IMG/VR virus record: IMGVR_UViG_3300037258_000514
Coordinates: 32,001 to 96,000 of that record
Origin: a virus
DNA length: 64,000 nt
Strand: one strand, 5' to 3'
This document shows positions 48,592 to 63,543 of this stretch, piece after piece. The position numbers were made by a program, and so were the translations under genes. The notes under the pieces are model-generated. The model worked only from the letters and a program-made list of their open reading frames with translations, was not told where the DNA came from and ran no database searches. The first letter of the stretch is position 1. Each line of letters opens with the position of its first letter.

Positions 48592-48990
48592 CTATGCTAC
48601 TGAAATTCGAGGATCAATTACTGCGGGCCATGTATTGTTATCTGGAGGCTGAAGTTGTTTGTTAGGTTCTGTTAAGGGAACTGTTACATGTATCTCAGCT
48701 GTGCACGTACTCTCTTGCATATCTAGTGTTGAACTCAGACTATAGTAGTAAGTCTCCCCTGCTTTTACATCTTCATCCATGTACCAATGTTTTCCTGAAG
48801 CTGTATTTGCTAGAAAAGATTTTCTGCATGAATGATGTTCAACTGTGCTTCTATAGATAGTTGTATAACAGTGAGCGCAGAGATCTTGATGCCATTGTAT
48901 CAGTACGGCGTGTCTGTATTTAGATTGATACTGAGGAGTCGTGCCGCAACTGAATAGAGTGATAAGTAGGAGTGTAAGTGCATATTTCAT
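48592..48990 (-). CDS. lipoprotein with an FN3-like domain
   Basis: Lipobox LFSC; 'IYRS', 'YMDEDV..GETYYY'. Confidence 0.7.
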   Translation of the reverse strand: MKYALTLLLITLFSCGTTPQYQSKYRHAVLIQWHQDLCAHCYTTIYRSTVEHHSCRKSFLANTASGKHWYMDEDVKAGETYYYSLSSTLDMQESTCTAEIHVTVPLTEPNKQLQPPDNNTWPAVIDPRISVA

Positions 48991-48993
48991 AAG

Positions 48994-49069
48994 TGGTGTC
49001 CCCGCTGGGATTCAAACCCAGATTTCCGGTTTCGTAGACCAGCGCCTTGTTCAATTGGACTACGGGGAC
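48994..49069 (-). tRNA. tRNA-Arg(ACG)
   Basis: Cloverleaf, loop CT-ACG-AA, CCA. Confidence 0.92.
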
Positions 49070-49480
49070 GTTTACTTTAATAAGTTTGGCATTGTCTCTT
49101 TGTAGTTATCAACTGTAACTAAATTACCATTCGATGCAACAAGTATTGGGAATCCCTTGTTAGTATCGCATTCAAAAGCTATACCGCATCCAGGACAATG
49201 TTTAATCCAAGGATAGGCGATGATCTGAAACGTTTTACAGTTTGAACACCGCATTCGTAGAGCTGTTACTTCAAAATGGGGTTCATTTATTATTTGTAAA
49301 TTTGCCGCGTGCGCCTACCTTCCAATCAATTGCCTGCTGGTGATCTAACGTTACGCAGTCTGCTACACTGTCGTAGACGGCGATTAATCCGCTTAGATCA
49401 GTCATGTTAAGCTCTTCTTTAACCTGGTCAAATGTAAGACGTTTTTCTGAGTCAAGAACAATGTATATTAGCATAAGTTT

Positions 49481-49556
49481 TGGTGCTAGCACTCGGATTC
49501 AAACCGAGATCTATTACTTAGGAGGTAATTGTCCTCTTCAATTGGACGATGCCAGC
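49481..49556 (-). tRNA. tRNA-Arg(CCT)
   Basis: Loop CT-CCT-AA, CCA. Confidence 0.92.
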
Positions 49557-49888
49557 TTTTCTTTATTTGCAGCCTGAAAACTTTTTTCGCGTTCTTCTTT
49601 ACAATGAGCGCATCCCGCGCATTCGATGTCGGCAATATCAAACTGTAAAAGTCTTTGTGGTTTGCCTTTAAATGTTTTGCAAAACTCTTGTACTACGGCT
49701 TGTGTTGAGTAATGCTGAGCTTCTTTCCAAGCTTCCCAGCGCTCCTCAAGATAGTTGTCAAGATAGCTGCCATGTTCCGTGCGCTGAAGTCCCTGTAACG
49801 GATGGACCCATCCGTTAAGAACCGCACGCTCTTCAAACTGTTCTCTCTGCGTCATTGTATTTTGTCTGCACAATCCACAAGATCGCAT
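49538..49888 (-). CDS. hypothetical protein, stop inside tRNA-Arg(CCT)
   Basis: ORF track; TGA lies in the D loop. Confidence 0.6.
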   Translation of the reverse strand: MRSCGLCRQNTMTQREQFEERAVLNGWVHPLQGLQRTEHGSYLDNYLEERWEAWKEAQHYSTQAVVQEFCKTFKGKPQRLLQFDIADIECAGCAHCKEEREKSFQAANKEKLASSN

Positions 49889-50259
49889 AGGATAGCTTTC
49901 ACAAAATCTTTGCCCATGCGTTCAGCATCAATTTCTACTTTGCCATCACTTCTTGTATGGAAAGTAATTTGTCCAAAACCGATTCCAGGTACGGACCAGT
50001 TAAGTTCAACCCACTGTCCACCATGGAATGTATGTTCCTTTCCTGCACTATCAATTCCGATTGTATCAGGACGATAGCCTACCGATCCAATTTTAACAAA
50101 TGAGGCGTGGACATTTCCTTTTTCTACTTCTTCGATCTTAACAGTTCCAATATTGTTTAGATCTGCTCCCTTTGGGAGTATAACAGATGCGGCTGTTGAT
50201 GCAAGTTTTTCTTTAATTTCTACTTCAGTTAAAGGAGCGGGTATGTGTTTTTTAATCAT
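49852..50259 (-). CDS. hypothetical protein
   Basis: ORF track. Confidence 0.55.
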   Translation of the reverse strand: MIKKHIPAPLTEVEIKEKLASTAASVILPKGADLNNIGTVKIEEVEKGNVHASFVKIGSVGYRPDTIGIDSAGKEHTFHGGQWVELNWSVPGIGFGQITFHTRSDGKVEIDAERMGKDFVKAILCDLVDCADKIQ

Positions 50260-50284
50260 TGGATTTTATCTAAACTCGGTAAAA

Positions 50285-50359
50285 TGGAGGAGCTAGCCGG
50301 ATTCGAACCGACGTTCACGGCTTAGAAGGCCATGTCCTGTCCTATTGGATGATAGCCCC
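50285..50359 (-). tRNA. tRNA-Arg(TCT)
   Basis: Loop CT-TCT-AA, CCA. Confidence 0.9.
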
Positions 50360-50383
50360 GATCTTATATAATTACCTGTAATT

Positions 50384-50458
50384 TGGTAGGGCCAGCGGGA
50401 GTTGAACCCGCATCCCGGGATTGAGAAACCCGTCGCCTAACCGTTAGCAGATGGCCCC
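50384..50458 (-). tRNA. tRNA-Glu(CTC)
   Basis: Loop TT-CTC-AA, CCA. Confidence 0.88.
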
Positions 50459-50826
50459 ACATAGCGTTTGTAAGCAGCATCCATTACAAAAGTTATATTC
50501 ATTTTGCCTACGGGATTCATTGAGTGAACTAAGTAGTTTTTCGGAAGTTGTCCTTGTTCAATTAACCACTTAGCACAATCGTATCCCGTTTTCTCCTGAA
50601 AAATTTCGTAAGGAATTTTAACTTCATTTAGTTTTTTATCAATCTCTGCATATGCAACAACATCGCAATAGTGTTGGTAGTGTTCGGTTCCAAGATCGTG
50701 GTCGAAACTGATTACGTCCGGTACGCCGTGAAGCTCGATGTAGGCAATAAATTCTTCGTATGATCGAACCACGTCCCAAGTAAAATCAGGTGGAAGTCTA
50801 CTATCATCTAAAAATAGCTTTCTCAT
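50437..50826 (-). CDS. cyclic-phosphate-processing receiver-domain protein
   Basis: 'LFLDD.R', 'ISFDHDLG', 'TGYDCAKWL', 'HSMNPVG'. Confidence 0.85.
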   Translation of the reverse strand: MRKLFLDDSRLPPDFTWDVVRSYEEFIAYIELHGVPDVISFDHDLGTEHYQHYCDVVAYAEIDKKLNEVKIPYEIFQEKTGYDCAKWLIEQGQLPKNYLVHSMNPVGKMNITFVMDAAYKRYVGPSANG

Positions 50827-51152
50827 TTCAACATCCTCTCATATTGTTGCGTTTGTTTATCATATTGTTGCGTTATTTTACGCAGTTGATGAATATGAAT
50901 TATTTCGAACGTTATTCTTACGATCATTAAAATTGCAATTAAAATAAGAAAGCGAAAGTGGTGATTAGACCTTTTCATTCAACACTCCCCAACTCGATCC
51001 TACGGCATAAGTGGGGAAACCGCATTCTTTTAAGTTAGAGCTTACCCATGCCGCGATTTCTTCATTTGTCTTTCCGTGCATATGTGCTGCTGCTTTAATT
51101 GCAAATTCGAAACACAGATCAACGAGTTTTTGTTTTTCGTTTATCATAAATT

Positions 51153-51230
51153 TGGTGGGGGCCGTGGGATTCGAACCCACTACCTTCCGCTTAAAAGGCG
51201 GTAGCTGCAATCCTTATGAGCTTCGCCCCC
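51153..51230 (-). tRNA. tRNA-Lys(TTT)
   Basis: Loop CT-TTT-AA, CCA. Confidence 0.88.
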
Positions 51231-51286
51231 ATCTAAGATGTGTTAAGTATTTCTACAGCTACAAAACGTTTCATTTATTCTCCTTT

Positions 51287-51826
51287 CTAAATATATACTG
51301 TCTTCATATATTGTTCAAATCGCATTGCACTCAATCTTATGGCGTAAGCATAAGCCTCGTCTTGCTCTTTTGTAATCGTAAGTTTTCCATTCTTATCACG
51401 CGGTAGATGTTGCATGTAAAACTTTATTCCACCTTCCATCGCATTCCTAACTCCTGGTTGGCGAACATAAACTTTATACTTCTTATCGCTCGGTTCAATT
51501 TCAACCACAGATTGATAGGAAGCATCAGGATCTGCACTTATACATCTGTTAATTAAAGCAAATAGATCGTCAGGATGTAACGAACCGCAAAAACTACACA
51601 CACGATTTCCATTTAATTTAAACTTATGCCATCTATCCAATCCTTTTGTGTGTTCCCAAGAACCGATTCCCTGCATTCTACGTCCGCACGTTATAGGCTC
51701 AGATAGCGTATCAACCAAGCTTAAGTACGTAGGTTCTTCTTCTATTATTCCACTACATCCAACAGTCTGACATTTTTCCCCGAGAACATCAGTTGAGCGT
51801 CCTATTAAGCATTTTTTGCAATACAT
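51287..51826 (-). CDS. Cys-rich hypothetical protein
   Basis: 'CSFCGSLHP', 'KFY.QH'. Confidence 0.6.
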   Translation of the reverse strand: MYCKKCLIGRSTDVLGEKCQTVGCSGIIEEEPTYLSLVDTLSEPITCGRRMQGIGSWEHTKGLDRWHKFKLNGNRVCSFCGSLHPDDLFALINRCISADPDASYQSVVEIEPSDKKYKVYVRQPGVRNAMEGGIKFYMQHLPRDKNGKLTITKEQDEAYAYAIRLSAMRFEQYMKTVYI

Positions 51827-51842
51827 ATGGCTCCTAAGAAGT

Positions 51843-51920
51843 TGGTGGACCGCCCGGGAATTGAACCCGGAACCTTCCGCTTAAGAGGCGGTTGCTCTCA
51901 GCCTATTGAGCTAGCGGTCC
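51843..51920 (-). tRNA. tRNA-Lys(CTT)
   Basis: Loop CT-CTT-AA, CCA. Confidence 0.93.
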
Positions 51921-52615
51921 CCTTTTTAAAATTAACTAAAATTCTTGTTGTTTTTGCATTAAAAGTGTTTTTCTATTACAACGTGCTATCCTCCCTTCCA
52001 TTTCAGATCAACACTTAGTGATAGGGCTGTTGAAGCCAACTCTGGCATCACTGTCGTACGCTGTTGAAAATCTAAGCCTTTTTAGGTTCAGGCTCTTCGA
52101 ATCTTTTTACTTCCGCTTTCGGATCCATTTTGTGAACTACAGGCTCCTTGAAAGCATAGACTTCGTGGAAGAATTTCTCCAAGAATTCTGCTGTTACTTC
52201 ACCTGCAGTTTCAAATTCAACAAGAATACGTTTCCTGTCGCCTACGATGTTTTCCGATTTGAGAATTTTAACATTACTTATACGTGCCATTTCTTCTCCT
52301 ATTGAGGTATATCTGAAAGTTGACCGATAGCGTTTTTAATTGTATTAAGTGCGTTCAAGTCATTACACGTTATACCAGAAATAGCTTTCATTGCTCGTTC
52401 CCTCATACTAACTGCGCCTCCAGTATAACCAGCCTGGAAGATTTGAAATTGTGTTGCGCTCTTGTTATCGTTTAATAGCTTGTTAAAAGCATCGTTCAGT
52501 TTATCAGCCATTGTTCTCCTTTGTTTTTCATTCTCTTGTCCCTGTTCCCAACTTGTAGCAGCGCGCATTCCTTCTTGTACACCTAGGTACAAGCCTTCAT
52601 TTGTACTCCTGAAAT

Positions 52616-52690
52616 TGGTAGGCGTAGAGAGAATCGAACTCCCGTAGGACGGTAATCGGCCCGTCTGCTCTGCCCCTGAGCTATACGCCT
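52616..52690 (-). tRNA. tRNA-Ile(GAT)-like, 8-nt anticodon loop
   Basis: AGGCGTA acceptor; GACGG-GCCGATTA-CCGTC. Confidence 0.75.
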
Positions 52691-52848
52691 AAAAAAACTT
52701 ACTTTGTGCAGAACTTCGCATGTTTGGTTCTTTGTTTTTTTGAACGAAATCTATTCCCGCAGAAGCCACAAAGTTGTTTCAGCATGTGACCAGTGCCTGA
52801 TGAGCCTTCACGTACTGCTGTTGGTTTTTTCATTTATTCTCCTAAAAT

Positions 52849-52924
52849 TGGTGCACCCGGAAGGACTCGAACCTCCGATAACTGTCTTGTAAGGGCAGCG
52901 TTTTAGCCGCTAAACTACGGGTGC
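52849..52924 (-). tRNA. tRNA-Val(TAC)
   Basis: Loop CT-TAC-AA, CCA. Confidence 0.92.
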
Positions 52925-53001
52925 ATCTAGGTGCTCACCGCACCTAGACTTTGAACTTAAACATCCCCCAAGGCTTTTATACCTTTATGTTTAAGCTAAA
53001 A

Positions 53002-53096
53002 TGGTAGTGGACCGGGGAATCGAACCCGCGCCGTCGCTCTAATCTGGAGCTCTCCGGTGAGTATAAGGCACCGCCGCACATCCAGTGCTGTCCACC
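53002..53096 (-). tRNA. atypical tRNA, TAT anticodon, short D arm, long variable arm
   Basis: GGTGGAC/GTCCACT-A-CCA; CGGTG-CCTTATACT-CACCG; GGTTCGATTCC. Confidence 0.7.
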
Positions 53097-53801
53097 ATTA
53101 ACTTTCAAAACTTTTCAAATTTGCGTAAACTTCTGCGTCATGCAAACCTTCTGTTGTAAAAGGAAATCTTGCAATCGGACTAAAATCTTTTTCCAAGAAG
53201 TGCGGATCAAGTTTAATTCTGTCTTTAATACGCTCTTTCGTAGAACGATAAACTAAAATCTTCCTGCCATCGTAAGGAGTACAGCCTAAATATCTTGCCT
53301 GTACCACACATATACAGGATAAGCTCTTGATCTCTTTAATGTTGATTATAGAAAAGAGTTCAGGATTAGGATTCGGTGGATCAGTTTTGCCTGCACTACT
53401 ACCAAGTAAATTTATTCCCATTTTAGATATTCTCAAAAATTGGTATTCGCAAATCACATTTAGGATTCATCGAGTACTTTGTTCGGTACCAGTAAACGTA
53501 TGAATGCCATTTCGGATTGTAGTAAGCTTCTTTCTCTTCTTTGTTAAGTAACTTCATAAGAAGCTCAACGTTATCTACTATAATCTCGTCAGGTTGATCT
53601 TGCCAATCAGCCCACAATTTTTGTAATCCATCTTCTATCTCTAGAATTAGATCAGGATATTTTTCCACTAAGTGGAGTTCGACTCCACGTAAGTCTAAAC
53701 GATGTCGCGTTGTTCTGCGCGTATTGTAGTAGTTCTCTTGCTCAGGCGTTAGTTTTGCAATTCCGCACACGTGGCACCCCGGTGATCCGCACATAAAGTT
53801 T

Positions 53802-53875
53802 TGGTGGCTCGTGACAGAATCGAACTGTCGTAGGTTGCTTATGAGACAACTGAACTACCACTGTTCTAACGAGCC
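53802..53875 (-). tRNA. tRNA-Met/Ile2(CAT)
   Basis: Loop CT-CAT-AA, CCA. Confidence 0.9.
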
Positions 53876-53884
53876 TCTAAATTT

Positions 53885-53962
53885 TGGCTGTGGGAGAGGG
53901 ATTCGAACCCCCGACCGTCACCTTAACAGGGTGCCGCTCTTACCGGACTGAGCTATCCCACA
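53885..53962 (-). tRNA. tRNA-Asn(GTT)
   Basis: Loop CT-GTT-AA, G73, CCA. Confidence 0.92.
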
Positions 53963-54579
53963 AAGTTTTTTGCTACTGCGATCCATTGTTGCGGATCGTT
54001 AAACATTTCTTTCCACTTAATACGCAAAACTTTCCAACCTTTGCTAATTAAGTAAGTATCTTTTCTCTGATCTCTTTCTTTAACTTCAATGTCTTCGTGT
54101 TGCTGGCCATCAATTTCAATTGCAAGCATTTTATTCTTCCAGGCGAAGTCAATTTTAAAAACTCCGGTCTGTAAGTTAAAATCATAATATTTATCTGTAA
54201 ATTCGTTTTCTATAACTTTCATGAAAAATTGTTCAGGATAAGATGGTTCGTTATTCCATTGACAAAATCCAATGTTATGTGCACGACCTTCGGCATGAGC
54301 CACTTTCATTTTTTCTGATAGTAGTTGTTTAGTTTCTTTTGTTTGAACTCTTCCTTGCCTGCCGCGTAATTTATTACTGCAACGTGCCGCGCTTAATGCT
54401 ACTCGAGGATCTTGTTTCGTTAATCCTTTATTCCAAGGAATGTTTCCTTTTGCTGATCCTGCTTTAAATGTTATTCCTGCCCCGTGCATTCTCCAGACGT
54501 GTGAAGCAAGTCCTCTTTCAGGTAATTCTTTTTCGCAATGATTGCATATTACTCGTGTTTTTGAAAGCGTATTATACAT
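53953..54579 (-). CDS. C2H2 + DUF559-like homing endonuclease; stop inside tRNA-Asn
   Basis: 'C.HC.....GL.SH...H', 'PWNKGL', 'IDFAW', 'IEIDG.QH'. Confidence 0.85.
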   Translation of the reverse strand: MYNTLSKTRVICNHCEKELPERGLASHVWRMHGAGITFKAGSAKGNIPWNKGLTKQDPRVALSAARCSNKLRGRQGRVQTKETKQLLSEKMKVAHAEGRAHNIGFCQWNNEPSYPEQFFMKVIENEFTDKYYDFNLQTGVFKIDFAWKNKMLAIEIDGQQHEDIEVKERDQRKDTYLISKGWKVLRIKWKEMFNDPQQWIAVAKNFVG

Positions 54580-54585
54580 AAAAAC

Positions 54586-54698
54586 TTCTGCAACAGTTAT
54601 CCGCCTTTTACTAGCCACTAGTAGAACTATTGTATTGGAAGTCCGCGGTGCTCCCCTCATTCCTACTAGTGATAGCGAGCTATGAATCTGTTGCAGAA
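54586..54698 (-). ncRNA. unassigned long hairpin RNA (strand inferred)
   Basis: TTCTGCAACAG/CTGTTGCAGAA closing stem and CACTAGTAG/CTACTAGTG inner stem. Confidence 0.55.
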
Positions 54699-54703
54699 AG
54701 TTG

Positions 54704-55013: not shown

Positions 55014-55088
55014 TGGTTGCGGGGGTTGGATTTGCACCAACGTCTGCAGGTTATGAGCCTACCGTATGACCTACGCTACCACCCCGCG
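55014..55088 (-). tRNA. tRNA-fMet-like (CAT)
   Basis: CGCGGGG start with C1:A72 mismatch; loop CT-CAT-AA. Confidence 0.85.
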
Positions 55089-55557
55089 TCAAACTAATCT
55101 TGTTCCCGCGTTTCCATCCAAGTTCGTAAAACGAATTAAGTTCTGTTAGCCGAACTAACATTGTCTTCTTTTCGCTAACGTTGTAAATCCATCTTTTCCC
55201 GAAGTTTGGGTTTTGTTCTCCTAGTCTCCCATGTAACTGACGAGCTTTTTCTAATCCATGTTTTTCAACAGTTGCTTGCCATAAATTTTTTGTGACTGCT
55301 CCACAAGCAATTGCATCTTGCCTGTTCTCTGATGGTGTTCCCCAATACAAATGAAACGGATTATTGCATTTCTCATTGTGACAGGCATGACAAGCTTGTA
55401 TCCTATGACCTTTTGGAACAGTTGTATTAAGTATGTGTGCAAGCAATCCTCTGCATTGCTCGGAATTACATCCACGTTCAACGCAGAACTCATTTAGTTT
55501 GAGATGAGATTGTCGCTCACTTTTTGTAAGCAAAATATAGTCTTCAATCTTAATCAT
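55051..55557 (-). CDS. HNH/His-Cys endonuclease, paralog 1
   Basis: 'ACHACHN.KCNNPFHLYWGT.SEN..D'. Confidence 0.85.
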   Translation of the reverse strand: MIKIEDYILLTKSERQSHLKLNEFCVERGCNSEQCRGLLAHILNTTVPKGHRIQACHACHNEKCNNPFHLYWGTPSENRQDAIACGAVTKNLWQATVEKHGLEKARQLHGRLGEQNPNFGKRWIYNVSEKKTMLVRLTELNSFYELGWKRGNKISLTRGGSVGHTVGS

Positions 55558-56057: not shown

Positions 56058-56062
56058 TTACT

Positions 56063-56372
56063 TGTGCCACGTATTCTGTTGACAGGGACGTGGCCTAACC
56101 CCGCTACTTAGCGAACTAAGCAGCAGCAGCTTGCGACATCCATGCGCCCTGAGGGATCATGAAAGGAGCAATCTGAGCAGTTTTGTCTGCATTTACAATT
56201 AGCTTCTCGTTACGGTGAGCAGCTATTTCCGGCGTCGCAAACAATCTACCTTACCTCCGTCGAATCTAATTCATCCCCGTAATTAGCGTCGAGAATGTTT
56301 AGTTGGTGGAGATGGCGGGGTACTGCCCCCCGCGTCCGTCGGTATAGCACATTGTTTGATATACGGCGCACT
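56063..56372 (-). ncRNA. ssrA: permuted two-piece tmRNA (outer ends approximate)
   Basis: Acceptor piece ...GACGCGGGGGGCAGTACCCCGCCATCTCCACCA (ends 56304) precedes GGGGATGAATTAGATTCGAC (starts 56278); tag ORF 56190..56116 ADKTAQIAPFMIPQGAWMSQAAAA*. Confidence 0.88.
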
Positions 56373-56375
56373 GTC

Positions 56376-56981
56376 TTAAAACTTTAATTTCCTACCTAAT
56401 TGCCAACCCTGTGTAAGATATAGTGCGGTTTCTTCTTTTGCAACAGCTTTTGACTTTTTCTCTTTTGTATTAAAGATCCAGTTTGTTCCAAATCTGTTAT
56501 TTTTGCTTCCCTGTTTTAACATACTCATTAATTCACACGAGCTTTGTTTATGTTTACTCCCCGTCCATTTTCTCTGACCGCGCAAGCTTGCACTCAATGC
56601 AAGTTGTCTGCGAACGTCTGTATTACTATCTAACCAGATACGTAATTTTACGTAAGCTCTTTTCCCTCCAAGAAGTCTATTAAATTTGTTTTGTTTCTCT
56701 ACCCACTCCCATCCGCCCATACCTCCGTTGTTAAGATTATAACATAACGGATTTTCTTTTTCTGCTTCAACAAGTCGAGCCTCGAGCGCAAACATATCTT
56801 CTGCATTGTCGAAATCTGCAAGCACTTCTTTACTAAAATTTACTATGCCATGCTTCTTTATTGCGTACCAGAAAAGTACTCCTGATCCTAAGTAACTATC
56901 ATCAGGCTTTTCTGTTTTATGCGCTCCGATGTAAAACTTGTTATTCACTTTACATGTCGTTTTATAAACTGTATAGTGCAT
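56376..56981 (-). CDS. GIY-YIG (Seg-like) homing endonuclease
   Basis: 'VYKTT...N.KFYIG.H.T...DD.YLGSG', 'CYNL..GG'. Confidence 0.88.
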   Translation of the reverse strand: MHYTVYKTTCKVNNKFYIGAHKTEKPDDSYLGSGVLFWYAIKKHGIVNFSKEVLADFDNAEDMFALEARLVEAEKENPLCYNLNNGGMGGWEWVEKQNKFNRLLGGKRAYVKLRIWLDSNTDVRRQLALSASLRGQRKWTGSKHKQSSCELMSMLKQGSKNNRFGTNWIFNTKEKKSKAVAKEETALYLTQGWQLGRKLKF

Positions 56982-57543: not shown

Positions 57544-57619
57544 TGGTGGACACTCCCGGAATCGAACCGGATTTTCTAGCTCTTCAGGCAAGCACATTGA
57601 CCTTCAATGTTAAGTGTCC
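57544..57619 (-). tRNA. tRNA-Phe(GAA)
   Basis: Loop CT-GAA-GA, CCA. Confidence 0.88.
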
Positions 57620-57864
57620 ATTTAACTCGCTATAACTTCTTTGACTACATGTCCTATGTGAGCAATACCTTTCGGTACACCACATTCGTTGCACATCCCG
57701 TATTTCTCGGGAAGCGGCTTGTTTGGATTGCAACAGTCGTGTCCACAGCGTTTACAAAATGGACGTTGAAGTCCGTTGTATGTTCGACACTTACAACATC
57801 CCCATCCCGGTAATAGATCTCTTACGTCGAGTAGTAACTGACATTGTTCTGTGTTCATAAAATT

Positions 57865-57943
57865 TGGTGCCCTAGGTGGGATTCGAACCCACAAAATCTT
57901 CTGGGTCTAAGCCAGACGCCTTTTCCGATTTGACCACTAGGGC
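57865..57943 (-). tRNA. tRNA-Leu(TAG)
   Basis: Loop CT-TAG-AC, short variable region, CCA. Confidence 0.88.
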
Positions 57944-58399
57944 CTCTTTACTATAAACTCCTTGTTTATGTAGGAGTTTAATAGAATCTGATATTTTTAG
58001 ACACTGTTCTTCAGGTTTTGGCTTTCCTTTATTACCACAACCATTCGTGTTTCCTCTGTGAGCTTGTCTTATTCGTGAAGCTTCTTCGCCATACTTTGCA
58101 ACTGTGTACTGCCAAACTGTTTTGTTATTTCGTCCGCTAGATATAGCATCCATTCTGTTTTCTCTAGGCGTACCCCAGTACACGTGAAATGGATTGCTAC
58201 ATTCTCCATTATGGCAAGCGTGACAAAGTTGAATTTTGTTTCCTCTTGGAATTGATGTATCCAAAATATAAGCTAGTAAGCCTTTTGAATAAACAGAAAC
58301 CCATCCCTCACCGCCACGATAAACACAAGGTTCATTAAGTTTTAAATGACGTTGTCTCTCGGCTTGGGATAGTAGAATATATTCTTCTATTCTAATCAT
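57872..58399 (-). CDS. HNH/His-Cys endonuclease, paralog 2
   Basis: 'LCHACHNGECSNPFHVYWGT..EN..D'; start revised to MIRIEEYILL. Confidence 0.85.
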   Translation of the reverse strand: MIRIEEYILLSQAERQRHLKLNEPCVYRGGEGWVSVYSKGLLAYILDTSIPRGNKIQLCHACHNGECSNPFHVYWGTPRENRMDAISSGRNNKTVWQYTVAKYGEEASRIRQAHRGNTNGCGNKGKPKPEEQCLKISDSIKLLHKQGVYSKEALVVKSEKASGLDPEDFVGSNPT

Positions 58400-58405
58400 G
58401 CAGGC

Positions 58406-58434
58406 ATTATAAATTAATTTAACGTGTCTACCAA
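58406..58434 (-). promoter_or_regulatory. sigma70 promoter, leaderless HNH transcript
   Basis: TTGGTA-17-TATAAT-6-ATG. Confidence 0.65.
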
Positions 58435-58442
58435 GCATAAAT

Positions 58443-58520: not shown

Positions 58521-58527
58521 AAATTTG

Positions 58528-58616: not shown

Positions 58617-58618
58617 TA

Positions 58619-58705
58619 TGGTGCATTGGGTTGGACTCGAACCAACGTAGCCACTATGGGCAACTGGGTTACAGCCAGTCTGTTTTGCCGCTCACACACC
58701 AATGC
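58619..58705 (-). tRNA. tRNA-Tyr(GTA)
   Basis: Loop CT-GTA-AC, long variable arm, CCA. Confidence 0.9.
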
Positions 58706-58929
58706 GAAACTACTTAAAAAGTTCTTCGTAAGCTTGTATCATCGTAGTATACTTATTCAGAGGATGTTCATCTGTCCACTCAACTTCACAAACTTCCGTT
58801 TTCATTACTTTCGGCATAATACAACGGTTTGGGTAGTGAGTGTTTTCTATTACGCTTTCTATTTCTTCTGGCGAAAGCTTATCATGATTAACAATGAGTA
58901 TTTCTACTTTGTATACTGTAGTCATAATC

Positions 58930-59021
58930 TGGAAGAGGGTAACGGAATTGAACCGTCTGTCTGCAATAGCAGCGCAGGTCCTGGGTTCGAGCCAAGTTGC
59001 CCACCATGAGCACTACCCTCT
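58930..59021 (-). tRNA. tRNA-Ser(CGA)
   Basis: Loop CT-CGA-AC, long variable arm; first nt shared with the CCA of the upstream tRNA. Confidence 0.82.
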
Positions 59022-59109
59022 GGCGGTGAGAGCGAGAGTCGAACTCGCGCGTCCCTTGCGGGTACTCCTGCTTTCCAGACAGGTGCTTTTACCATTCAGC
59101 CATCTCACC
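59021..59109 (-). tRNA. tRNA-Ser(GGA)
   Basis: Loop CT-GGA-AA, G73, CCA. Confidence 0.93.
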
Positions 59110-59110
59110 T

Positions 59111-59659
59111 CTAAACTTGAGTATTTCTATCGCGTTTGTATTTTCCTTGCGCGTGTAATTCTTTAACAGCTGATGAGATCAACGCGTTCGTGCAACTAGC
59201 CCTTCCGCGCTGCCAATCAGGATAGTTGTTAATTTCTTCTTTTAAAATAAGTTTTTCACTTATTCCATTTGTAATCCAAATCTTTCCAAAAATAACTTGA
59301 CTTGCTTTTTGAATGTTTATCAAAGCATTTTGTCTTGCTAACGTTCGTGCTTTTTCTTCTCCATGTTTCGCTATTGATTTTTCCCAAATATTATGCTGGC
59401 TCCCGGCTTGTTTTGCGTCGTAAAAATTTTCGGTAGGCGTGCCCCAGTATAAGTGAAAAGGATTACTACATTTGTCATTATTACAAGCATGGCAAAGATA
59501 AATTGTATGTTTACTGGGAACTGTTGTATCAAGAATGTATGCGAGTAATCCTTTACACTCCGTTGAGTTACATCCTCTTTCTTCACACAGACTAGAAAGT
59601 TCAAGATGTGCCTGACGATCTACTTTTGTCTTTAAGATATACTCTTCTATTTTAATCAT
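59111..59659 (-). CDS. HNH/His-Cys endonuclease, paralog 3
   Basis: 'LCHACNNDKCSNPFHLYWGT..EN..D', 'WITNG'. Confidence 0.85.
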   Translation of the reverse strand: MIKIEEYILKTKVDRQAHLELSSLCEERGCNSTECKGLLAYILDTTVPSKHTIYLCHACNNDKCSNPFHLYWGTPTENFYDAKQAGSQHNIWEKSIAKHGEEKARTLARQNALINIQKASQVIFGKIWITNGISEKLILKEEINNYPDWQRGRASCTNALISSAVKELHAQGKYKRDRNTQV

Positions 59660-59666
59660 AAGAAAT

Positions 59667-59761
59667 TGGAGGAGGGCCGGAGAGTTGAACTCCGTTATGC
59701 CAGGTGCTCTGACATTCGCCAGTTTTCAAAACTGGTGGCTGGACCGTGCGCCACGCCCTCC
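59667..59761 (-). tRNA. tRNA-Ser(TGA)
   Basis: Loop TT-TGA-AA, long variable arm, CCA. Confidence 0.88.
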
Positions 59762-59938
59762 TAATATCGTGTACTAAACGTTAACTTTTTAATTTGTGCG
59801 CGTCTCATAATGTAGTTCTTTAAGAATGCAGCCTGACGAATTTTTCCTTCTTCAACGGCACGAATAGAAAAGTTGATCATTAGCTCAAAGAAACGTTCTT
59901 GCTGCTTGCGTAGTTCATTCAAACTAGGCATAAGATTA

Positions 59939-60029
59939 TGGCGGAGGGTACAGGATTTGAACCTGTGGAACGTTTATAGTTCACTTCTTTAGCAAAGAAG
60001 CGCGATAAGCCGGACTCTGCCAACCCTCC
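59939..60029 (-). tRNA. tRNA-Ser(GCT)
   Basis: Loop TT-GCT-AA, G73, CCA. Confidence 0.93.
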
Positions 60030-60398
60030 GAAAACTATAACGCACAGGCTGGACTGTGCCCGCCTGTGCGCTTCTTCCTTTTAGTTTACATTTTGCATTT
60101 CCTCTGTTTATCTTTAACATTTCTAAACAGTGTCAATAGTTTCATCTATATCATATATGATAAGATTTTTGTTGTTATACTCCCTGCATCTGCAAATGCA
60201 ATGGTACTGGAATATAACTCTCATCCTAGGTGCTTGAGTCGGAATACTGAATAAAAACAGGTCCTATCTTATCGTTCGCCGTCCTAGGTGCTCCGGCGCG
60301 TACTGCAATCTTGATTGTATTTTTAAGTTTTATCTGTTATTCTGTAGATGTTTTTTCAAGTTTTCATTATTTTGGTCCCCCTACCTCATTTATACCAA

Positions 60399-60672
60399 TT
60401 ACCTGTTTACCTTCCAAATGTTTCTAGCTACTTCTGCTTTGTGCCAAGCTTTAAATGTCGGTGTTTCGATTAGCTTTAAGAAAGCCTCTTTGCGATTAAA
60501 GATGTTGGTCACGACCATCGCGGTGCTCGGCTCGTGCTCCAGAAGCTAGATGAATCAATCTAACTCCATTTTGTTTAGCGTTCCTGCGTTGTCCGCCCTT
60601 ACCACCTGTGCAGAACGTTTGAATTTCAAAATCGTTCTTTGTTACACTAAACAACAACACTTTATTTTCCAT
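60399..60672 (-). CDS. GGQ peptide-chain release factor (ArfB/RF-1 domain) split by a +1 frameshift at CTT TAA
   Basis: Absent from the ORF track. RBS AAGGAG; MENKVLLFSVTKNDFEIQTFCTGGKGGQRRNAKQNGVRLIHLASGARAEHRDGRDQHL* continues in +1 as NRKEAFLKLIETPTFKAWHKAEVAR... Confidence 0.8.
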
Positions 60673-60689
60673 GTTGTTCTCCTTGAAAC

Positions 60690-60767
60690 TGGTAGGCGCG
60701 GAGGGATTCGAACCCCCAATTGATGCTGCTTTTGAGGCAACCGCTTTGCCAAGTTAGCTACGTGCGG
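60690..60767 (-). tRNA. tRNA-Leu(CAA) with a mismatched acceptor stem
   Basis: Loop CT-CAA-AA; CCGCACG vs CGCGCCT gives 3 mismatches. Confidence 0.7.
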
Positions 60768-61345
60768 ACAAAAAGTTTAGTAGTTCTTCCTTTTTCCCAT
60801 CCTTCTGATATGAAAAGAAGTATTTTGTTTTGTTTAATTTTAATCTCTTTTCCTTCTTTTCGTATCCAGCAAGTTCCAAACTGCGAGTTCCTCTCTGCAA
60901 TTTTCCTTGCATCAGTTAATGCTTCTTTAGCACGTACTTTGTTTTGCTCTTCTTTGTTATTTAATCTTTGTTGATTAATACTAGAAATGTTTTTTCTACC
61001 ACTAGAAGCTTGTATTTCCTTTGCTTTTTCTAAACCGTGTTTTTCGACCATCTTTTGCCATAAAGATTTATAATTACTACTGCAAATGTAATCAGCAGTA
61101 TTTTCTTTTCTTGTTCCCCAATACAAATGAAAAGGATTACTACACTTTCCATTGTTACATGCATGACATGCTTCTACGTTAATCTTATACGGAAGAGAAG
61201 TGTTTAGTATATAAGATAACGTTCCTCGCATTGCATATGAAACTAATGCAGAATTCCCTCCACGTTCTACGCATTGTTCATCTAATCTTAAATGCTTTTT
61301 CCGTTGTTCTAACGGAAGCAAGATATAGTCCTCAATTCGAATCAT
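60758..61345 (-). CDS. HNH/His-Cys endonuclease, paralog 4
   Basis: 'ACHACNNGKCSNPFHLYWGT..EN..D', 'NSQFGTCWI'; start revised to MIRIEDYILL. Confidence 0.85.
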   Translation of the reverse strand: MIRIEDYILLPLEQRKKHLRLDEQCVERGGNSALVSYAMRGTLSYILNTSLPYKINVEACHACNNGKCSNPFHLYWGTRKENTADYICSSNYKSLWQKMVEKHGLEKAKEIQASSGRKNISSINQQRLNNKEEQNKVRAKEALTDARKIAERNSQFGTCWIRKEGKEIKIKQNKILLFISEGWEKGRTTKLFVRT

Positions 61346-61352
61346 ATGGCAA

Positions 61353-61382
61353 ATTATAATTTGTAGTTGATTCAAAAATCAA
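61353..61382 (-). promoter_or_regulatory. sigma70 promoter, leaderless HNH transcript
   Basis: TTGATT-18-TATAAT-7-ATG. Confidence 0.65.
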
Positions 61383-61393
61383 GCAATGAAAAT

Positions 61394-61479
61394 TGGTAGG
61401 CCCTATCGGAGTTGAACCGATACTCCCGAAGGAAACGAGGCTTAAACTCGTTGCGTCTGCCGGATTCCGCCAAAGGCCC
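61394..61479 (-). tRNA. tRNA-Leu(TAA)
   Basis: Loop TT-TAA-GC, long variable arm, CCA. Confidence 0.92.
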
Positions 61480-61489
61480 GTAAAAGAAT

Positions 61490-61677
61490 TCAGAGAAGAA
61501 GGCTGTCATTAGTGACAGTAAAGAAGATTATCATCAATCTGTTTCTCTACTTAACCTAAGCGCGAAGCGCATCTATCACCTTGATCGGCCTCTCCACGAT
61601 CCTTCGGACTCAGCAATAGAGAACTTGCTACACCTAAATGCAATCCGCGGTGCTTTGCTAGTGTACATCTTCTCTGA
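61490..61677 (-). ncRNA. unassigned 188-nt structured RNA
   Basis: Closing stem TCAGAGAAGA/TCTTCTCTGA; internal hairpins including GCGC-TTC-GCGC and CTGTCA/TGACAG. Confidence 0.55.
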
Positions 61678-61688
61678 TACTTAAAAAT

Positions 61689-61763
61689 TGGTGGAGGGTA
61701 GGAGAGTCGAACTCCTGATACTTGGTTGCAGGCCAAGTGTGTTCCCGCTAGCACTAACCCCCC
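61689..61763 (-). tRNA. tRNA-Ala(TGC)
   Basis: G3:U70; loop CC-TGC-AA (C33). Confidence 0.88.
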
Positions 61764-61848
61764 AGATACCGCTCGCGTCCGAAACGTTTTGCCTAGGAGA
61801 GTTCCAAACAACAGGCGGTATTCATCCACGGAGCGACCGTGAAACTTA

Positions 61849-62610
61849 CTAATTAATTTTATGGGGCGGCAGATGGGAGTCAGACCCACTAAAAGATGCT
61901 CCACAGGCATCTGCCGCATCGTTTGGCTTCTGCCGCCGTAGCTTGATTTCTCTTCTTTCTAATAATCCGTTAAGAGATCCAAAGTTTGGTGTTAAAGAAT
62001 GACAACTCGGACAAAGTATTTTTACATTACTTCGTCTATTATTTGTTCTATCACCATCTACATGGTGAAACTCTGTTGGGATATTTCCCGTAGTAGGATG
62101 AATTCGCATCCAGCCACATTCTTCACAACTATTTCCGCGAAGTTCTATTAAAGCTCTCTGAGCGAAGTATTCAGTTAGATTATTTTCTCCTGCAAACCAT
62201 CTTTCCTTATCTAACTGCCATTTATGCGCTATCCTACATTTTCCGCTGCAATACTCATTTAAGCCTGTTTTACCACAGAACGTACAAAGCCTTCTTGGAA
62301 TTTTTATTCTTCCGATGTTATTAACTATCCCGGCGCAAGTTTTACTACAATATAATAATCCGTTTGGGCCAACAAAGTTAAAACATTCTGCGCGTTGGCA
62401 CTTTACTCTTTGTTTATTCTTTGTTCTAAGTAAAGCATTTTCTTTGTTAACTTGAACCGCTTTCTCTCGCCCTTTGTTCCAGCGTTCTTTTGCTTCTAAC
62501 GAAAGAACTTCGTGATAGGGTTTGCCTCCGACTTGTATACAGTAAGTTTTGTGCCTATTTAATCCACGAATGTCTTTGCATTCCTTACCACATATACAAT
62601 GAACAATCAT
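61849..62610 (-). CDS. HNH endonuclease with Zn fingers; ORF contains the whole tRNA-His
   Basis: 'CEECGW', 'HHVDGDRTNN...N...LCPSCHS'. Confidence 0.9.
   Translation of the reverse strand: MIVHCICGKECKDIRGLNRHKTYCIQVGGKPYHEVLSLEAKERWNKGREKAVQVNKENALLRTKNKQRVKCQRAECFNFVGPNGLLYCSKTCAGIVNNIGRIKIPRRLCTFCGKTGLNEYCSGKCRIAHKWQLDKERWFAGENNLTEYFAQRALIELRGNSCEECGWMRIHPTTGNIPTEFHHVDGDRTNNRRSNVKILCPSCHSLTPNFGSLNGLLERREIKLRRQKPNDAADACGASFSGSDSHLPPHKIN
61862..61937 (-). tRNA. tRNA-His(GTG)
   Basis: G-1:C73; loop CT-GTG-GA; atypical T loop TCTGACT. Confidence 0.85.
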
Positions 62611-62620
62611 ACACTGTTAT

Positions 62621-62653
62621 ACCAAGCGCCTAAACCATTCGGCCAACGTCACC
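62621..62653 (-). pseudogene. tRNA 5' half (His-like) truncated at the anticodon loop
   Basis: G-GTGACGT-TG-GCC-GAATGGTTTA-GGC-G-CTTGG-T, then 10 nt to the HNH ATG. Confidence 0.7.
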
Positions 62654-62867
62654 ATAAAACTTAAACTAATCTTCTCCGCGAATTTTTACGAGAGTCCTTT
62701 TTCTTAATTCAGGTAATGAATCTATCTTCTGAGCAAGGGCAAGAAGTTGGGATTCAATTCTACATGCTTCCCTATAAACTTCTTTCTCTTCAGGATTGTC
62801 TTGATTTGCTGCAAAAACTATCTTTGCAACTTCACGCGATATTGCCTCTGCTAAATTAATCATAACT

Positions 62868-62943
62868 TGGAGCCACCGGTGGGACTCGAACCCACGATTG
62901 ACAGTTTACAAAACTGTTGCTGTCGCCACTGAGCCACGGTGAC
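62868..62943 (-). tRNA. tRNA-Thr(TGT)
   Basis: Loop TT-TGT-AA, CCA. Confidence 0.92.
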
Positions 62944-62950
62944 TTAAAAT

Positions 62951-63024
62951 TGGAGCCGCCATCGGGAATCGAACCCGAGTAGATTGCTTACCAAGCAATT
63001 GAACTGCCACTGTTCTATAGCGAC
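62951..63024 (-). tRNA. tRNA-Thr(GGT)
   Basis: Loop TT-GGT-AA, CCA. Confidence 0.92.
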
Positions 63025-63064
63025 TTACTTACCACATTACCTTCTCAGCCGTCCTTTAGGAAAA

Positions 63065-63138
63065 TGGAGCCGGCAACAGGAATCGAACCTGTGTAGGTAG
63101 TTTACGAAACTACTGAACTGCCACTGTTCTATACCGAC
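63065..63138 (-). tRNA. tRNA-Thr(CGT)
   Basis: Loop TT-CGT-AA, CCA. Confidence 0.92.
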
Positions 63139-63543
63139 GTTTATGTATTACTAGGTCTTACTATCCTGGCGTTGATTCTATCCCTACTAAATCTTTCCAG
63201 GATATCCCAAAATACAGCATCAGGAACTTTCCTGTATTCTGATGTAACCATACCAAGGAAGAAGACCATTTCCGCTTCAGTCCACTCAACCAAACTAGCT
63301 GTTAGTATATGGCAGTCGTAAGTTGTTCTTGGCATAAACTTAATCGCGTCCTACTACTGTCATCGCTCGGCTACGTAGTAAGTAAAGAGGACAAAGCGAT
63401 AAAAGACCCTCACCGCGAAATCTTTACAAGGTTTCTACTCCGTTACAGGTAGCCTACCTCCACGACAGTTGCTATGAGCAAGGTTGAGTTCTCTGTAACT
63501 TAGGCTCAACGGGCGGCTCGGATTTGAACCGAGAAGTGTAATT

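What the first reader, a model, noticed from the sequence alone, without database searches (positions are those of the whole stretch)
48990..63340. Mitochondria-like tRNA punctuation: ORFs start just after CCA and end at or inside the next tRNA
Seen: nine ORFs have ATG 3-7 nt after a tRNA CCA, with no room for a separate RBS (starts 48990, 49474, 51147, 53794, 57858, 58925, 59659, 59931, 62863). Six have their stop inside the downstream tRNA (49538, 50437, 53953, 55051, 57872, 60758) and one (61849) spans a whole tRNA. Six more stop 1-4 nt before a tRNA (49072, 53098, 57622, 58710, 59111, 63141). Inference: tRNA excision would release near-leaderless and, in seven cases, non-stop mRNAs. The phage encodes the tools that handle these (tmRNA, GGQ factor, Pth). 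Five of the seven are nucleases, so tRNA maturation could throttle toxic endonucleases through tmRNA tagging.
Basis: partly seen in the sequence, partly recalled or inferred. Interest (0 to 1): 0.72.

Follow-up and report, generated by a model that had tools for sequence, protein, structure and literature searches.

The report
Phage genes packed flush between tRNAs
In this uncultured 176-kb phage and its relatives, small genes and homing-nuclease genes fill the gaps between tRNA genes so tightly that cutting out the tRNAs would probably create each message's start and often remove its stop codon, much as in mitochondria, but no RNA data exist yet to show it.

Summary
All nine listed ORFs start with ATG 3-7 nt after an encoded CCA. 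The six stops inside a tRNA, the ORF spanning a whole tRNA and the six stops 1-4 nt before a tRNA are also there. Three of these tRNAs are non-canonical, and one is a disabled remnant.

It is not chance. Tight starts occur at 10 of 32 tRNAs here, against 29 of 1,470 in 123 other phage loci (p 2e-9). None of the 11 tight starts has a Shine-Dalgarno-like motif. Syntenic metagenomic relatives show the same junctions, with different ORFs behind the same tRNAs, so this is a rule of the lineage.

- **Starts:** leaderless-type expression after tRNA 3' processing is the most likely reading. It is inferred only.
- **Stops:** stops inside tRNAs also occur in phage T5. Loss of the stop codon through tRNA maturation was proposed for T4 segB in 2008. 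In relatives, ORFs with no recorded Pfam hit overlap tRNAs too.
- **Rescue factors:** tmRNA is confirmed and the GGQ factor is likely. "Pth" is only a sub-threshold match, and a dedicated rescue or throttle role is speculative.

The scan noted the start-side pattern before on other, unrelated phage DNA.

The parts
48592..48990 (-). 132-aa lipoprotein-like ORF. Its ATG lies 3 nt after the CCA of tRNA-Arg(ACG), 48994-49069.
   Evidence: The product begins MKYALTLLLITLFSCG, a signal peptide with a lipobox, so the start must be this ATG.
49072..49254 (-). 60-aa ORF whose stop lies 2 nt before tRNA-Arg(ACG).
49283..49474 (-). 63-aa ORF. Its ATG lies 6 nt after the CCA of tRNA-Arg(CCU), 49481-49556.
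   Evidence: Coding score is positive.
49538..49888 (-). 116-aa ORF whose stop lies 19 nt inside tRNA-Arg(CCU). Its coding support is weak.
50437..50826 (-). 129-aa cREC_REC-domain ORF whose stop lies 22 nt inside tRNA-Glu(CUC), 50384-50458.
   Evidence: PF20274, 1.4e-24.
50965..51147 (-). 60-aa ORF. Its ATG lies 5 nt after the CCA of tRNA-Lys(UUU), 51153-51230.
   Evidence: A homologue with 61% identity in L126/L127 starts 6 nt after tRNA-Lys(CUU).
53002..53096 (-). Non-canonical 95-nt tRNA-Ile(UAU)-like element with a long extra arm and a CCA end.
   Evidence: 7-bp acceptor stem, T arm GGGUUCGAUUCCC. ARAGORN and Rfam do not detect it.
53098..53457 (-). 119-aa ORF (phrog_13501) whose TAA stop lies 1 nt before the tRNA-Ile(UAU)-like element.
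53423..53794 (-). 123-aa ORF. Its ATG lies 7 nt after the CCA of tRNA-Met, 53802-53875.
   Evidence: homologues of 121-124 aa cover the query at 97-100%, while the database gene call for this genome is cut to 115 aa. The same junction is kept in L130.
53953..54660 (-). 235-aa Vsr/DUF559-type endonuclease whose stop is the U8-A9-G10 TAG of tRNA-Asn, 53885-53962.
55014..55088 (-). Initiator-like tRNA(CAU) with a C1:A72 mismatch.
   Evidence: Rfam, 37 bits; cloverleaf fold.
55051..55557 (-). 168-aa HNH homing endonuclease (one of the paralogue family) whose stop lies 38 nt inside the initiator-like tRNA.
56065..56420 (-). Two-piece (permuted) tmRNA.
   Evidence: RF01849, 77.8 bits; RF04321, 76.4 bits. 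The reading frame ends ...MSQAAAA*. Relatives carry a near-identical tag.
56376..56981 (-). 201-aa GIY-YIG homing endonuclease ending at or inside the 5' edge of the tmRNA.
   Evidence: phrog_314, 3.6e-38. It overlaps by 45 nt on the alpha_tmRNA model boundary, and leaves a 7-nt gap on the permuted-model boundary.
57622..57858 (-). 78-aa zinc-ribbon-like ORF. Its ATG lies 6 nt after the CCA of tRNA-Leu(UAG), 57865-57943, and its stop 2 nt before tRNA-Phe, 57544-57619.
57872..58438 (-). HNH paralogue whose stop lies 72 nt inside tRNA-Leu(UAG). The ATG at 58438 is 4 nt after tRNA-Leu(GAG), but the conserved Met is at 58399, behind a sigma-70-like promoter.
   Evidence: its tail ...GSNPT is a translated T arm.
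58710..58925 (-). 71-aa ORF (phrog_3154). Its ATG lies 4 nt after the CCA of tRNA-Ser(CGA), 58930-59021, and its stop 4 nt before tRNA-Tyr, 58619-58705.
   Evidence: Homologues in S-CRM01, Pam2 and L126 align from residue 1.
59111..59659 (-). 182-aa HNH paralogue. Its ATG lies 7 nt after the CCA of tRNA-Ser(UGA), 59667-59761, and its stop 1 nt before tRNA-Ser(GGA), 59021-59109.
   Evidence: the conserved N-terminus MIKIEEYIL begins at this ATG.
59761..59931 (-). 56-aa ORF. Its ATG lies 7 nt after the CCA of tRNA-Ser(GCU), 59939-60029. The G of its TAG stop is nucleotide 1 of tRNA-Ser(UGA).
   Evidence: The homologue in L126/L127 also starts 7 nt after tRNA-Ser(GCU).
60496..60672 (-). 58-codon GGQ (RF-1 domain) ORF with an AAGGAG Shine-Dalgarno, 17 nt after the tRNA-Leu(CAA) remnant. 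It ends CTT TAA, and the domain continues in the +1 frame.
60690..60767 (-). tRNA-Leu(CAA) remnant with a broken 5' acceptor strand.
60758..61375 (-). HNH paralogue whose stop is the TAG at positions 8-10 of the remnant tRNA. The conserved Met is at 61345, behind a sigma-70-like promoter.
61849..62610 (-). 253-aa HNH endonuclease whose 3' end contains a whole divergent tRNA-His (61862-61937). A tRNA-His 5' half remains upstream, at about 62622-62653.
62666..62863 (-). 65-aa ORF. Its ATG lies 4 nt after the CCA of tRNA-Thr(UGU), 62868-62943.
63141..63335 (-). 64-aa ORF. It starts 7 nt after the CyVA-1 RNA (63343-63419) and stops 2 nt before tRNA-Thr(CGU), 63065-63138.

Best explanation
This is a long, single-strand tRNA/tmRNA array of an uncultured 176-kb phage. 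Protein-coding cassettes fill the spaces between RNA genes completely. They comprise conserved small ORFs and at least nine free-standing homing-endonuclease genes.

Shown:
- Every tRNA carries an A/U-rich 3' trailer (CCA, then 0-3 A, then 2-6 U).
- In 11 cases the ATG of a real gene follows that trailer directly, 3-7 nt after CCA, with no Shine-Dalgarno.
- ORFs run up to the next tRNA or into it, often ending on the tRNA's own U8-A9-G10 (TAG).
- Syntenic relatives keep the same rule with different ORFs.

Inferred:
- A folded tRNA 3-7 nt upstream leaves neither an SD nor a landing site for a ribosome. These ORFs are therefore most likely translated from processed RNA.
- Host RNase E-type cleavage in the trailer would release mRNAs with leaders of 0-5 nt, translated like leaderless mRNAs.
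- Host RNase P cleavage at the next tRNA would then leave the stop codon at the very 3' end, or remove it. That would lower the yield and feed ribosome rescue.
- The stop-side overlaps are mainly a by-product of tight packing and of endonuclease genes inserting against or into their target tRNA genes, as in T4 and T5. They are not a purpose-built throttle.
For: - Architecture and gaps.
- Enrichment against 1,470 tRNAs in 123 other phage loci: tight starts p 1.8e-9. Stops, against 1,377 tRNAs in 118 IMG/VR loci: p 4.5e-6.
- T5 keeps 13-74 nt and S-CRM01 14-58 nt between a tRNA and the next gene.
- 0 of 11 tight starts have an SD-like motif, against 45-67% of other genes and a 13% background. 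All 11 use ATG.
- The genes are real: lipoprotein signal peptide, homologues aligned from residue 1, paralogue N-termini, positive coding scores.
- Relatives L126, L127 and L130 have the same tRNA order and tmRNA tag and the same junctions, with different ORFs behind the same tRNA. Three orthologous ORFs stay close behind a tRNA, at 6, 7 and 10 nt in L126.
- Trailer composition.
- Leaderless translation looks possible in this system. Three strong sigma-70-like promoters place the transcription start on an ATG, two of them on the conserved Met of HNH paralogues. The phage also has an initiator-like tRNA.
- Precedent for stop loss through tRNA maturation in T4 segB and T5: PMC2330249.
Against: - Every processing and translation step is inference.
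- The host is unknown, so its RNases and its capacity for leaderless translation are unknown.
- About half of all genes in this phage lack an SD anyway, and 51% of same-strand gene junctions are 8 nt or less. Compaction plus SD-independent initiation on the precursor could therefore suffice.
- The tight-start ORFs show no special 5' structure or A+T content.
- There is no genome-wide peak of -10 elements at the leaderless position.
Confidence: 0.5

Rival explanations
1. Pure compaction. The phage minimises all intergenic DNA. The ORFs are translated co-transcriptionally from the unprocessed precursor, by SD-independent initiation on the short A/U trailer, and terminate normally before the tRNA folds and is cut. 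The junctions carry no expression logic.
For: - 51% of same-strand gene junctions are 8 nt or less, similar to 11 of about 18 tRNA-to-ORF junctions.
- About 50% of genes lack SD-like motifs.
- T5 and other arrays also have stops inside tRNAs.
- The tight ORFs have no distinctive 5' features.
Against: - Other compact phages keep room for an SD after a tRNA: T5 has 13 nt or more at all 13 junctions, and S-CRM01 has 14 nt or more.
- Tight starts are about 15 times rarer in 1,470 other phage tRNAs.
- A folded acceptor stem 7-11 nt upstream of the AUG would occupy the ribosome's mRNA exit path (own knowledge).
- The rule is re-created with different ORFs in relatives.
Confidence: 0.3
2. tRNA excision deliberately makes stop-less mRNAs for toxic endonucleases. 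The phage's own tmRNA, GGQ factor and Pth exist to tag or release those products, so tRNA maturation throttles the nucleases.
For: - Six or seven of nine nuclease genes in the array end inside a downstream RNA gene, and one more ends 1 nt before it.
- tmRNA and a GGQ ORF lie inside the array and are kept in relatives.
- A similar expression-limiting idea was published for T4 segB and the T5 endonucleases.
Against: - In relatives, ORFs with no Pfam hit on record also end inside tRNAs.
- One overlapped tRNA is a dead remnant that RNase P may not cut.
- The endonuclease overlaps are equally explained by insertion into or next to target tRNA genes. An example is the split and replaced tRNA-His. 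Homologues in other contigs also end in tRNA-Leu.
- 'Pth' is a sub-threshold match.
Confidence: 0.15
3. Cassette-exchange footprint. The conserved tRNA genes are the recombination and homing borders of one-gene modules. ORFs fit exactly between tRNAs because that is where modules are swapped, not because of how they are expressed.
For: - L126 and L127, otherwise near-identical, differ by whole ORF sets between the same tRNAs.
- G000 carries endonuclease genes where relatives have none.
- HNH and GIY-YIG homologues recur in many unrelated tRNA arrays.
- T4 SegB recognises the tRNA T-arm motif.
Against: - This does not explain how SD-less ORFs 3-7 nt behind a tRNA are translated.
- It is compatible with the best explanation rather than an alternative to it.
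Confidence: 0.35

Closest known systems
tRNA gene regions of phages T4 (segB) and T5 (hegC, hegD and small ORFs)
   Same: - Same-strand tRNA clusters interleaved with small ORFs and free-standing HNH or GIY-YIG homing endonucleases.
- ORF stops lie inside or against the next tRNA: T5 has 4 overlaps of 6-24 nt and 3 gaps of 0-5 nt.
- It has been proposed that tRNA maturation cuts off the stop codon and limits endonuclease expression (PMC2330249).
   Different: - T5 genes start 13-74 nt after a tRNA, leaving room for an SD. Here 11 genes start 3-7 nt after CCA with no SD.
- The density is higher here: 41% of tRNAs are touched on the 5' side, against 22% in T5 by the same script.
- Two ORFs here contain all or nearly all of a tRNA.
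Animal mitochondrial tRNA punctuation (Ojala, Montoya and Attardi 1981; own knowledge, and reviews listed, e.g. PMC4394434)
   Same: - mRNA genes are flanked directly by tRNA genes on one strand.
- Predicted mRNAs have leaders of 0 to a few nt and no SD.
- One stop codon (59761) would be left incomplete (UA) by RNase P cleavage.
- Two tRNA genes share a nucleotide (59021).
   Different: - Processing here is not demonstrated.
- CCA is encoded, so 3' cleavage would be RNase E-type followed by trimming, not RNase Z at the discriminator base.
- Many ORFs keep a complete stop.
- Some genes in the same array use a normal AGGAG Shine-Dalgarno 15-17 nt after the CCA.
Bacterial leaderless mRNAs (5'-terminal AUG; own knowledge, e.g. 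PMC4007540 listed)
   Same: AUG-only starts and no SD. The phage also has promoter-made leaderless candidates.
   Different: Here the 5' end would come from RNA processing, giving a 5' monophosphate and a few U residues before the AUG, not from transcription initiation. This is untested.

Membership tests
Mitochondria-type tRNA punctuation | mRNA genes flanked directly (0 to a few nt) by tRNA genes on the same strand | tested here: met
   11 starts lie 3-7 nt after CCA; 7 stops lie 1-5 nt before a tRNA; 7-8 stops lie inside a tRNA.
Mitochondria-type tRNA punctuation | One long polycistronic precursor across the array | tested here: inconclusive
   sigma-70-like promoters (30 found, 35 expected) and terminators (16 found, 14 expected) are not enriched. 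A strong terminator lies just past the array at 47404-47428. Two good promoter-like sites precede HNH genes. Phage-specific promoters cannot be excluded.
Mitochondria-type tRNA punctuation | tRNA-processing nucleases release the mRNAs | not testable with these tools
The phage has no RNase P RNA and no CCA-adding enzyme, so host enzymes would be needed.
Mitochondria-type tRNA punctuation | Incomplete stop codons completed after cleavage | tested here: inconclusive
   One candidate exists: the TAG at 59761 shares its G with tRNA position 1. L126 has a parallel case. Completion of the codon cannot be tested.
Free-standing homing endonucleases of phage tRNA clusters (T4 segB / T5 heg type) | HNH or GIY-YIG nuclease domain in an ORF lying between tRNA genes on the same strand | tested here: met
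   six HNH paralogues, one further HNH, one Vsr-like and one GIY-YIG.
Free-standing homing endonucleases of phage tRNA clusters (T4 segB / T5 heg type) | [quoted passage not shown] | tested here: met
   The syntenic arrays in L126 and L127 lack most of these endonuclease genes.
Free-standing homing endonucleases of phage tRNA clusters (T4 segB / T5 heg type) | The enzyme cleaves the endonuclease-free allele in or near a tRNA gene | not testable with these tools
   This needs a biochemical assay. Indirect hints are the split tRNA-His and the broken tRNA-Leu(CAA) next to HNH genes.
Leaderless mRNA | No Shine-Dalgarno, and an AUG start codon | tested here: met
   0 of 11 have an SD-like motif, and 11 of 11 start with ATG.
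Leaderless mRNA | The RNA 5' end lies at or within a few nt of the AUG | not testable with these tools
   No RNA data.
Phage-encoded ribosome rescue set (tmRNA, ArfB-like GGQ factor, Pth) | tmRNA gene | tested here: met
   RF01849 at 77.8 bits and RF04321 at 76.4 bits. ARAGORN calls the orthologue in L126/L127 a permuted tmRNA.
Phage-encoded ribosome rescue set (tmRNA, ArfB-like GGQ factor, Pth) | GGQ (RF-1) domain protein | tested here: inconclusive
   PF00472 scores 31.9 bits, below the cut-off of 35. A GGQ motif is present, and the homologue clusters carry PF00472. A full-length product needs a +1 shift at CTT TAA.
Phage-encoded ribosome rescue set (tmRNA, ArfB-like GGQ factor, Pth) | Peptidyl-tRNA hydrolase | tested here: not met
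   PF01981 finds no match in the genome at E 0.001 or better. The ORF at 8858-9328 scores 15.2 bits against a cut-off of 23, E 0.026.

The most novel reading that the evidence does not exclude
In this phage lineage the tRNA array would be a true punctuated operon. On this reading, tRNA processing is the obligatory step that creates translatable, nearly leaderless mRNAs and also stop-less 3' ends. The phage's own initiator tRNA, two-piece tmRNA and frameshift-controlled GGQ factor would then form a dedicated expression and rescue system for those messages. That would be a bacterial-virus counterpart of mitochondrial gene expression.
Probability: 0.2. Interest if true: 0.85.

Novelty: new variant of a known kind. 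Interest (0 to 1): 0.6.

Why it matters
- **A new route to translation.** If tRNA 3' processing really creates the translated 5' ends, tRNA arrays in large phages are expression platforms for accessory genes that need no promoter and no Shine-Dalgarno. That route is known from mitochondria. I did not find it described for phages in the papers I could search.
- **Annotation.** Standard gene callers mis-start these genes. The database call for the 123-aa ORF is truncated to 115 aa.
- **An experimental system.** The array supplies natural, testable substrates for the competition between RNase P, release factors, tmRNA and ArfB-type factors at mRNA 3' ends.

Tried and rejected
- Close relatives by DNA, or by single proteins in the phage and IMG/VR collections: none found. 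Relatives were found only through the protein database. The record holding the 180-kb relative (L125) is not held for searching.
- SD hidden in the tRNA 3' acceptor strand: none in 11 cases.
- Special 5' structure or A+T richness of the tight-start ORFs: no difference, but only 7 of the ORFs were in the crude gene set.
- Genome-wide peak of -10 elements at the leaderless position: none with longest-ORF starts. Only three strong individual cases exist.
- Association of tmRNA with stops inside tRNAs across the IMG/VR loci: 2/33 against 67/1344. There is no signal, but power is very low, because the loci are partial and ARAGORN misses permuted tmRNAs.
- Phage-encoded processing tools: no RNase P RNA and no PolyA_pol/CCA-adding domain.
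- The ORF at 61551-61919 across tRNA-Ala was rejected as spurious (coding score -18.5).
- phiCbK proved a poor control, because its tRNAs are mostly followed by other tRNAs.

Full report
**Source.** The window is bases 32001-96000 of a single 175,952-bp IMG/VR virus record. It has 40.6% G+C and an estimated completeness of 86%. No close relative exists in the GenBank phage collection. Single-protein scans of IMG/VR also found none.

**The array.**
- On the minus strand, from about 48.1 kb to 66.8 kb in window numbering, lies an array of 30 ARAGORN tRNAs. All have an encoded CCA.
- It also holds a two-piece tmRNA at 56065-56420 and a CyVA-1 RNA at 63343-63419.
- Four tRNA-like elements escape ARAGORN:
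  - an initiator-like tRNA(CAU) at 55014-55088;
  - a tRNA-Leu(CAA) remnant at 60690-60767;
  - a divergent tRNA-His at 61862-61937;
  - a 95-nt tRNA-Ile(UAU)-like element at 53002-53096.

**Check of the observation.**
- *Starts.* ATG follows CCA by 3-7 nt at 48990, 49474, 51147, 53794, 57858, 58925, 59659, 59931 and 62863. It also does so at 58438 and, outside the window, at 66690.
- *Stops inside the next tRNA.* These are at 49538, 50437, 53953, 55051, 57872 and 60758. The ORF ending at 61849 contains a whole tRNA-His.
- *Stops 1-4 nt before a tRNA.* These are at 49072, 53098, 57622, 58710, 59111 and 63141.
- *Caveats.*
  - The tRNA behind 60758 has lost acceptor pairing and is probably dead.
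  - The ATG at 58438 is probably not the real start, because four paralogous HNH proteins share the N-terminus MI[KR]IE[DE]YIL, which is codon 14 of that ORF.
  - Several overlaps of exactly 10 nt arise because the ORF ends on the tRNA's conserved U8-A9-G10, which reads TAG.

**Are the ORFs real?** Most have positive coding scores in their own frame. Further support:
- The 132-aa ORF begins with a lipoprotein signal peptide.
- The 71-aa ORF aligns from residue 1 with proteins of cyanophage S-CRM01 and Pseudanabaena phage Pam2.
- The 123-aa ORF has homologues of 121-124 aa at 97-100% query coverage. The database gene call for this genome had been cut to 115 aa.
- Several small ORFs have homologues of 50-76% identity in related contigs.

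**Is it more than chance or ordinary packing?** I ran the same mechanical script on 123 other phage loci. These were 118 IMG/VR tRNA-array loci that had been selected for containing a CCA..TTATG match, which biases the control towards the pattern, plus five loci from four GenBank phages (T5, S-CRM01, phiCbK and Pam2).
- *Tight ATG starts:* 29 of 1,470 tRNAs there, against 10 of 32 here (p 1.8e-9).
- *Stops inside or within 5 nt before a tRNA:* 130 of 1,377 in the 118 IMG/VR loci, against 13 of 32 here (p 4.5e-6).
- *T5:* its genes start 13-74 nt after a tRNA at all 13 junctions. However, it has 4 ORFs ending 6-24 nt inside a tRNA and 3 ending 0-5 nt before one.
- *S-CRM01:* no tight junctions.

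The stop-side feature is therefore an intensified version of something known. The start-side feature is the unusual part.

Within this genome, 51% of same-strand gene junctions are 8 nt or less, so the spacing itself fits general compaction. What differs is the ribosome-binding signal. SD-like motifs precede 45-67% of other genes (background 13%) but none of the 11 tRNA-tight starts. A second class of genes in the array has AGGAG and starts 15-17 nt after CCA.

**Relatives.** Protein searches recovered syntenic arrays in metagenomic contigs.
- L126, L127 and L128 share the tRNA order, a near-identical tmRNA tag and the 58-aa GGQ ORF. L130 is a closer relative by GGQ identity.
- They show the same junctions (CCA-AATTT-ATG and similar) at 6-9 tRNAs each in L126 and L127.
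- Different ORFs sit behind the same tRNA in G000, L126 and L127.
- Three orthologous ORFs stay close behind a tRNA in L126. The 60-aa ORF starts 6 nt after a tRNA-Lys, the 56/76-aa ORF 7 nt after tRNA-Ser(GCU), and the 71/77-aa ORF 10 nt after a tRNA-Ser.
- ORFs with no Pfam hit on record also end 9-15 nt inside tRNAs there.
- The junction tRNA-Met, 7 nt, then ATG TGC GGA TCA is kept in L130 even though the ORF behind it is reduced to 17 codons ending on the next tRNA's TAG.

The arrangement is thus a stable rule of the lineage, and inter-tRNA ORFs behave as exchangeable modules.

**Homing endonucleases.** The array holds six paralogous HNH genes, one other HNH, a Vsr-like nuclease and a GIY-YIG nuclease.
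- All lie just upstream of an RNA gene. Six or seven overlap it.
- Homologues in unrelated viral contigs also end inside tRNA-Leu genes.
- One HNH gene splits tRNA-His and carries a full replacement copy in its 3' end.
- T4 SegB recognises the tRNA T-arm motif. For T4 segB, and by personal communication for the T5 enzymes, it has already been proposed that tRNA maturation cuts between the last codon and the stop codon and so restrains expression (PMC2330249).

**Mechanism.**
- *Shown:* the geometry, the absence of SD, the universal A/U-rich trailer and conservation in relatives.
- *Inferred:* host RNase E-type cleavage in the trailer, followed by 3' trimming of the tRNA, would yield mRNAs with leaders of 0-5 nt. 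Host RNase P at the next tRNA would leave the stop at the extreme 3' end or remove it.
- *Plausibility of leaderless translation here:* three strong sigma-70-like promoters put the transcription start on an ATG, two of them on the conserved Met of HNH paralogues. The phage also has an initiator-like tRNA.
- *Rescue factors:* the tmRNA and GGQ ORF in the array fit a high load of stop-less mRNAs, but I found no specific link (low power). 'Pth' is not supported.

**Prior notes of the scan.** The start-side pattern was noted before on several other, unrelated phage genomes. None resembles this stretch in sequence. I did not count those notes as evidence.

**Verdict.** The start-side reading, that tRNA processing releases nearly leaderless mRNAs, is the best available explanation (about 0.5). 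I did not find it in the literature I could search. The stop-side reading is largely already known from T4 and T5 and is not clearly adaptive here. The proposed tmRNA throttle is speculative (about 0.15).

Noticed in passing
window 60382-60672 (-): A GGQ (RF-1 domain) ORF of 58 codons ends CAT CTT TAA, and the domain continues in the +1 frame (NRKEAFLKL...). This resembles the prfB CUU-UGA frameshift site. The CTT TAA site is conserved in L130. Homologues fall into two length groups, 56-60 aa and 86-100 aa, the longer ones unshifted.
   Followed up: partly
window 61849-62653 (-): An HNH gene sits inside tRNA-His. A canonical 5' half remains upstream (about 62622-62653), and a complete but divergent tRNA-His (61862-61937) is encoded within the last codons of the HNH ORF. 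Relatives have one intact tRNA-His at this position.
   Followed up: partly
window 55014-55088 (-): An initiator-like tRNA (CGCGGGG...CUCAUAA...CCCCGCAACCA, with a C1:A72 mismatch) that ARAGORN misses. Its D arm is short and it has only two G:C pairs next to the anticodon loop.
   Followed up: partly
window 53002-53096 (-); also L078 6624-6715: A 95-nt tRNA-Ile(UAU)-like element with a long extra arm. ARAGORN calls a 92-nt tRNA-Ile(tat) in an unrelated viral contig next to an HNH homologue.
   Followed up: no
window 58406-58434 and 61353-61382 (-); genome 142475 (+): Strong sigma-70-like promoters (10-11 of 12 matches) lie 6-7 nt upstream of an ATG. Two of these ATGs are the conserved Met of HNH paralogues. 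These are candidate promoter-made leaderless mRNAs.
   Followed up: partly
window 59021 (-): tRNA-Ser(GGA) and tRNA-Ser(CGA) share one nucleotide: the A of the first tRNA's CCA is nucleotide 1 of the second. Only one of the two can be complete from a single transcript without repair.
   Followed up: no
window 9272-9347 (+); L126 12717-12792 and 13233-13308: Suppressor-type tRNAs: a CUA anticodon here, and both UUA and CUA anticodons in the relative. The weak PTH2-like ORF at 8858-9328 runs 57 nt into the CUA tRNA.
   Followed up: no
window 52616-52690 (-): ARAGORN reports a tRNA with a 4-nt anticodon 'cgat' (Rfam 47.5 bits). It sits where relatives have tRNA-Ile(GAU), so it is probably that tRNA with an odd anticodon loop.
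   Followed up: no
window 60030-60495 and 52925-53001 (-): Stretches of the array without an ORF or a tRNA contain stable hairpins (for example two at 52925-53000). They may be further small RNAs.
   Followed up: no
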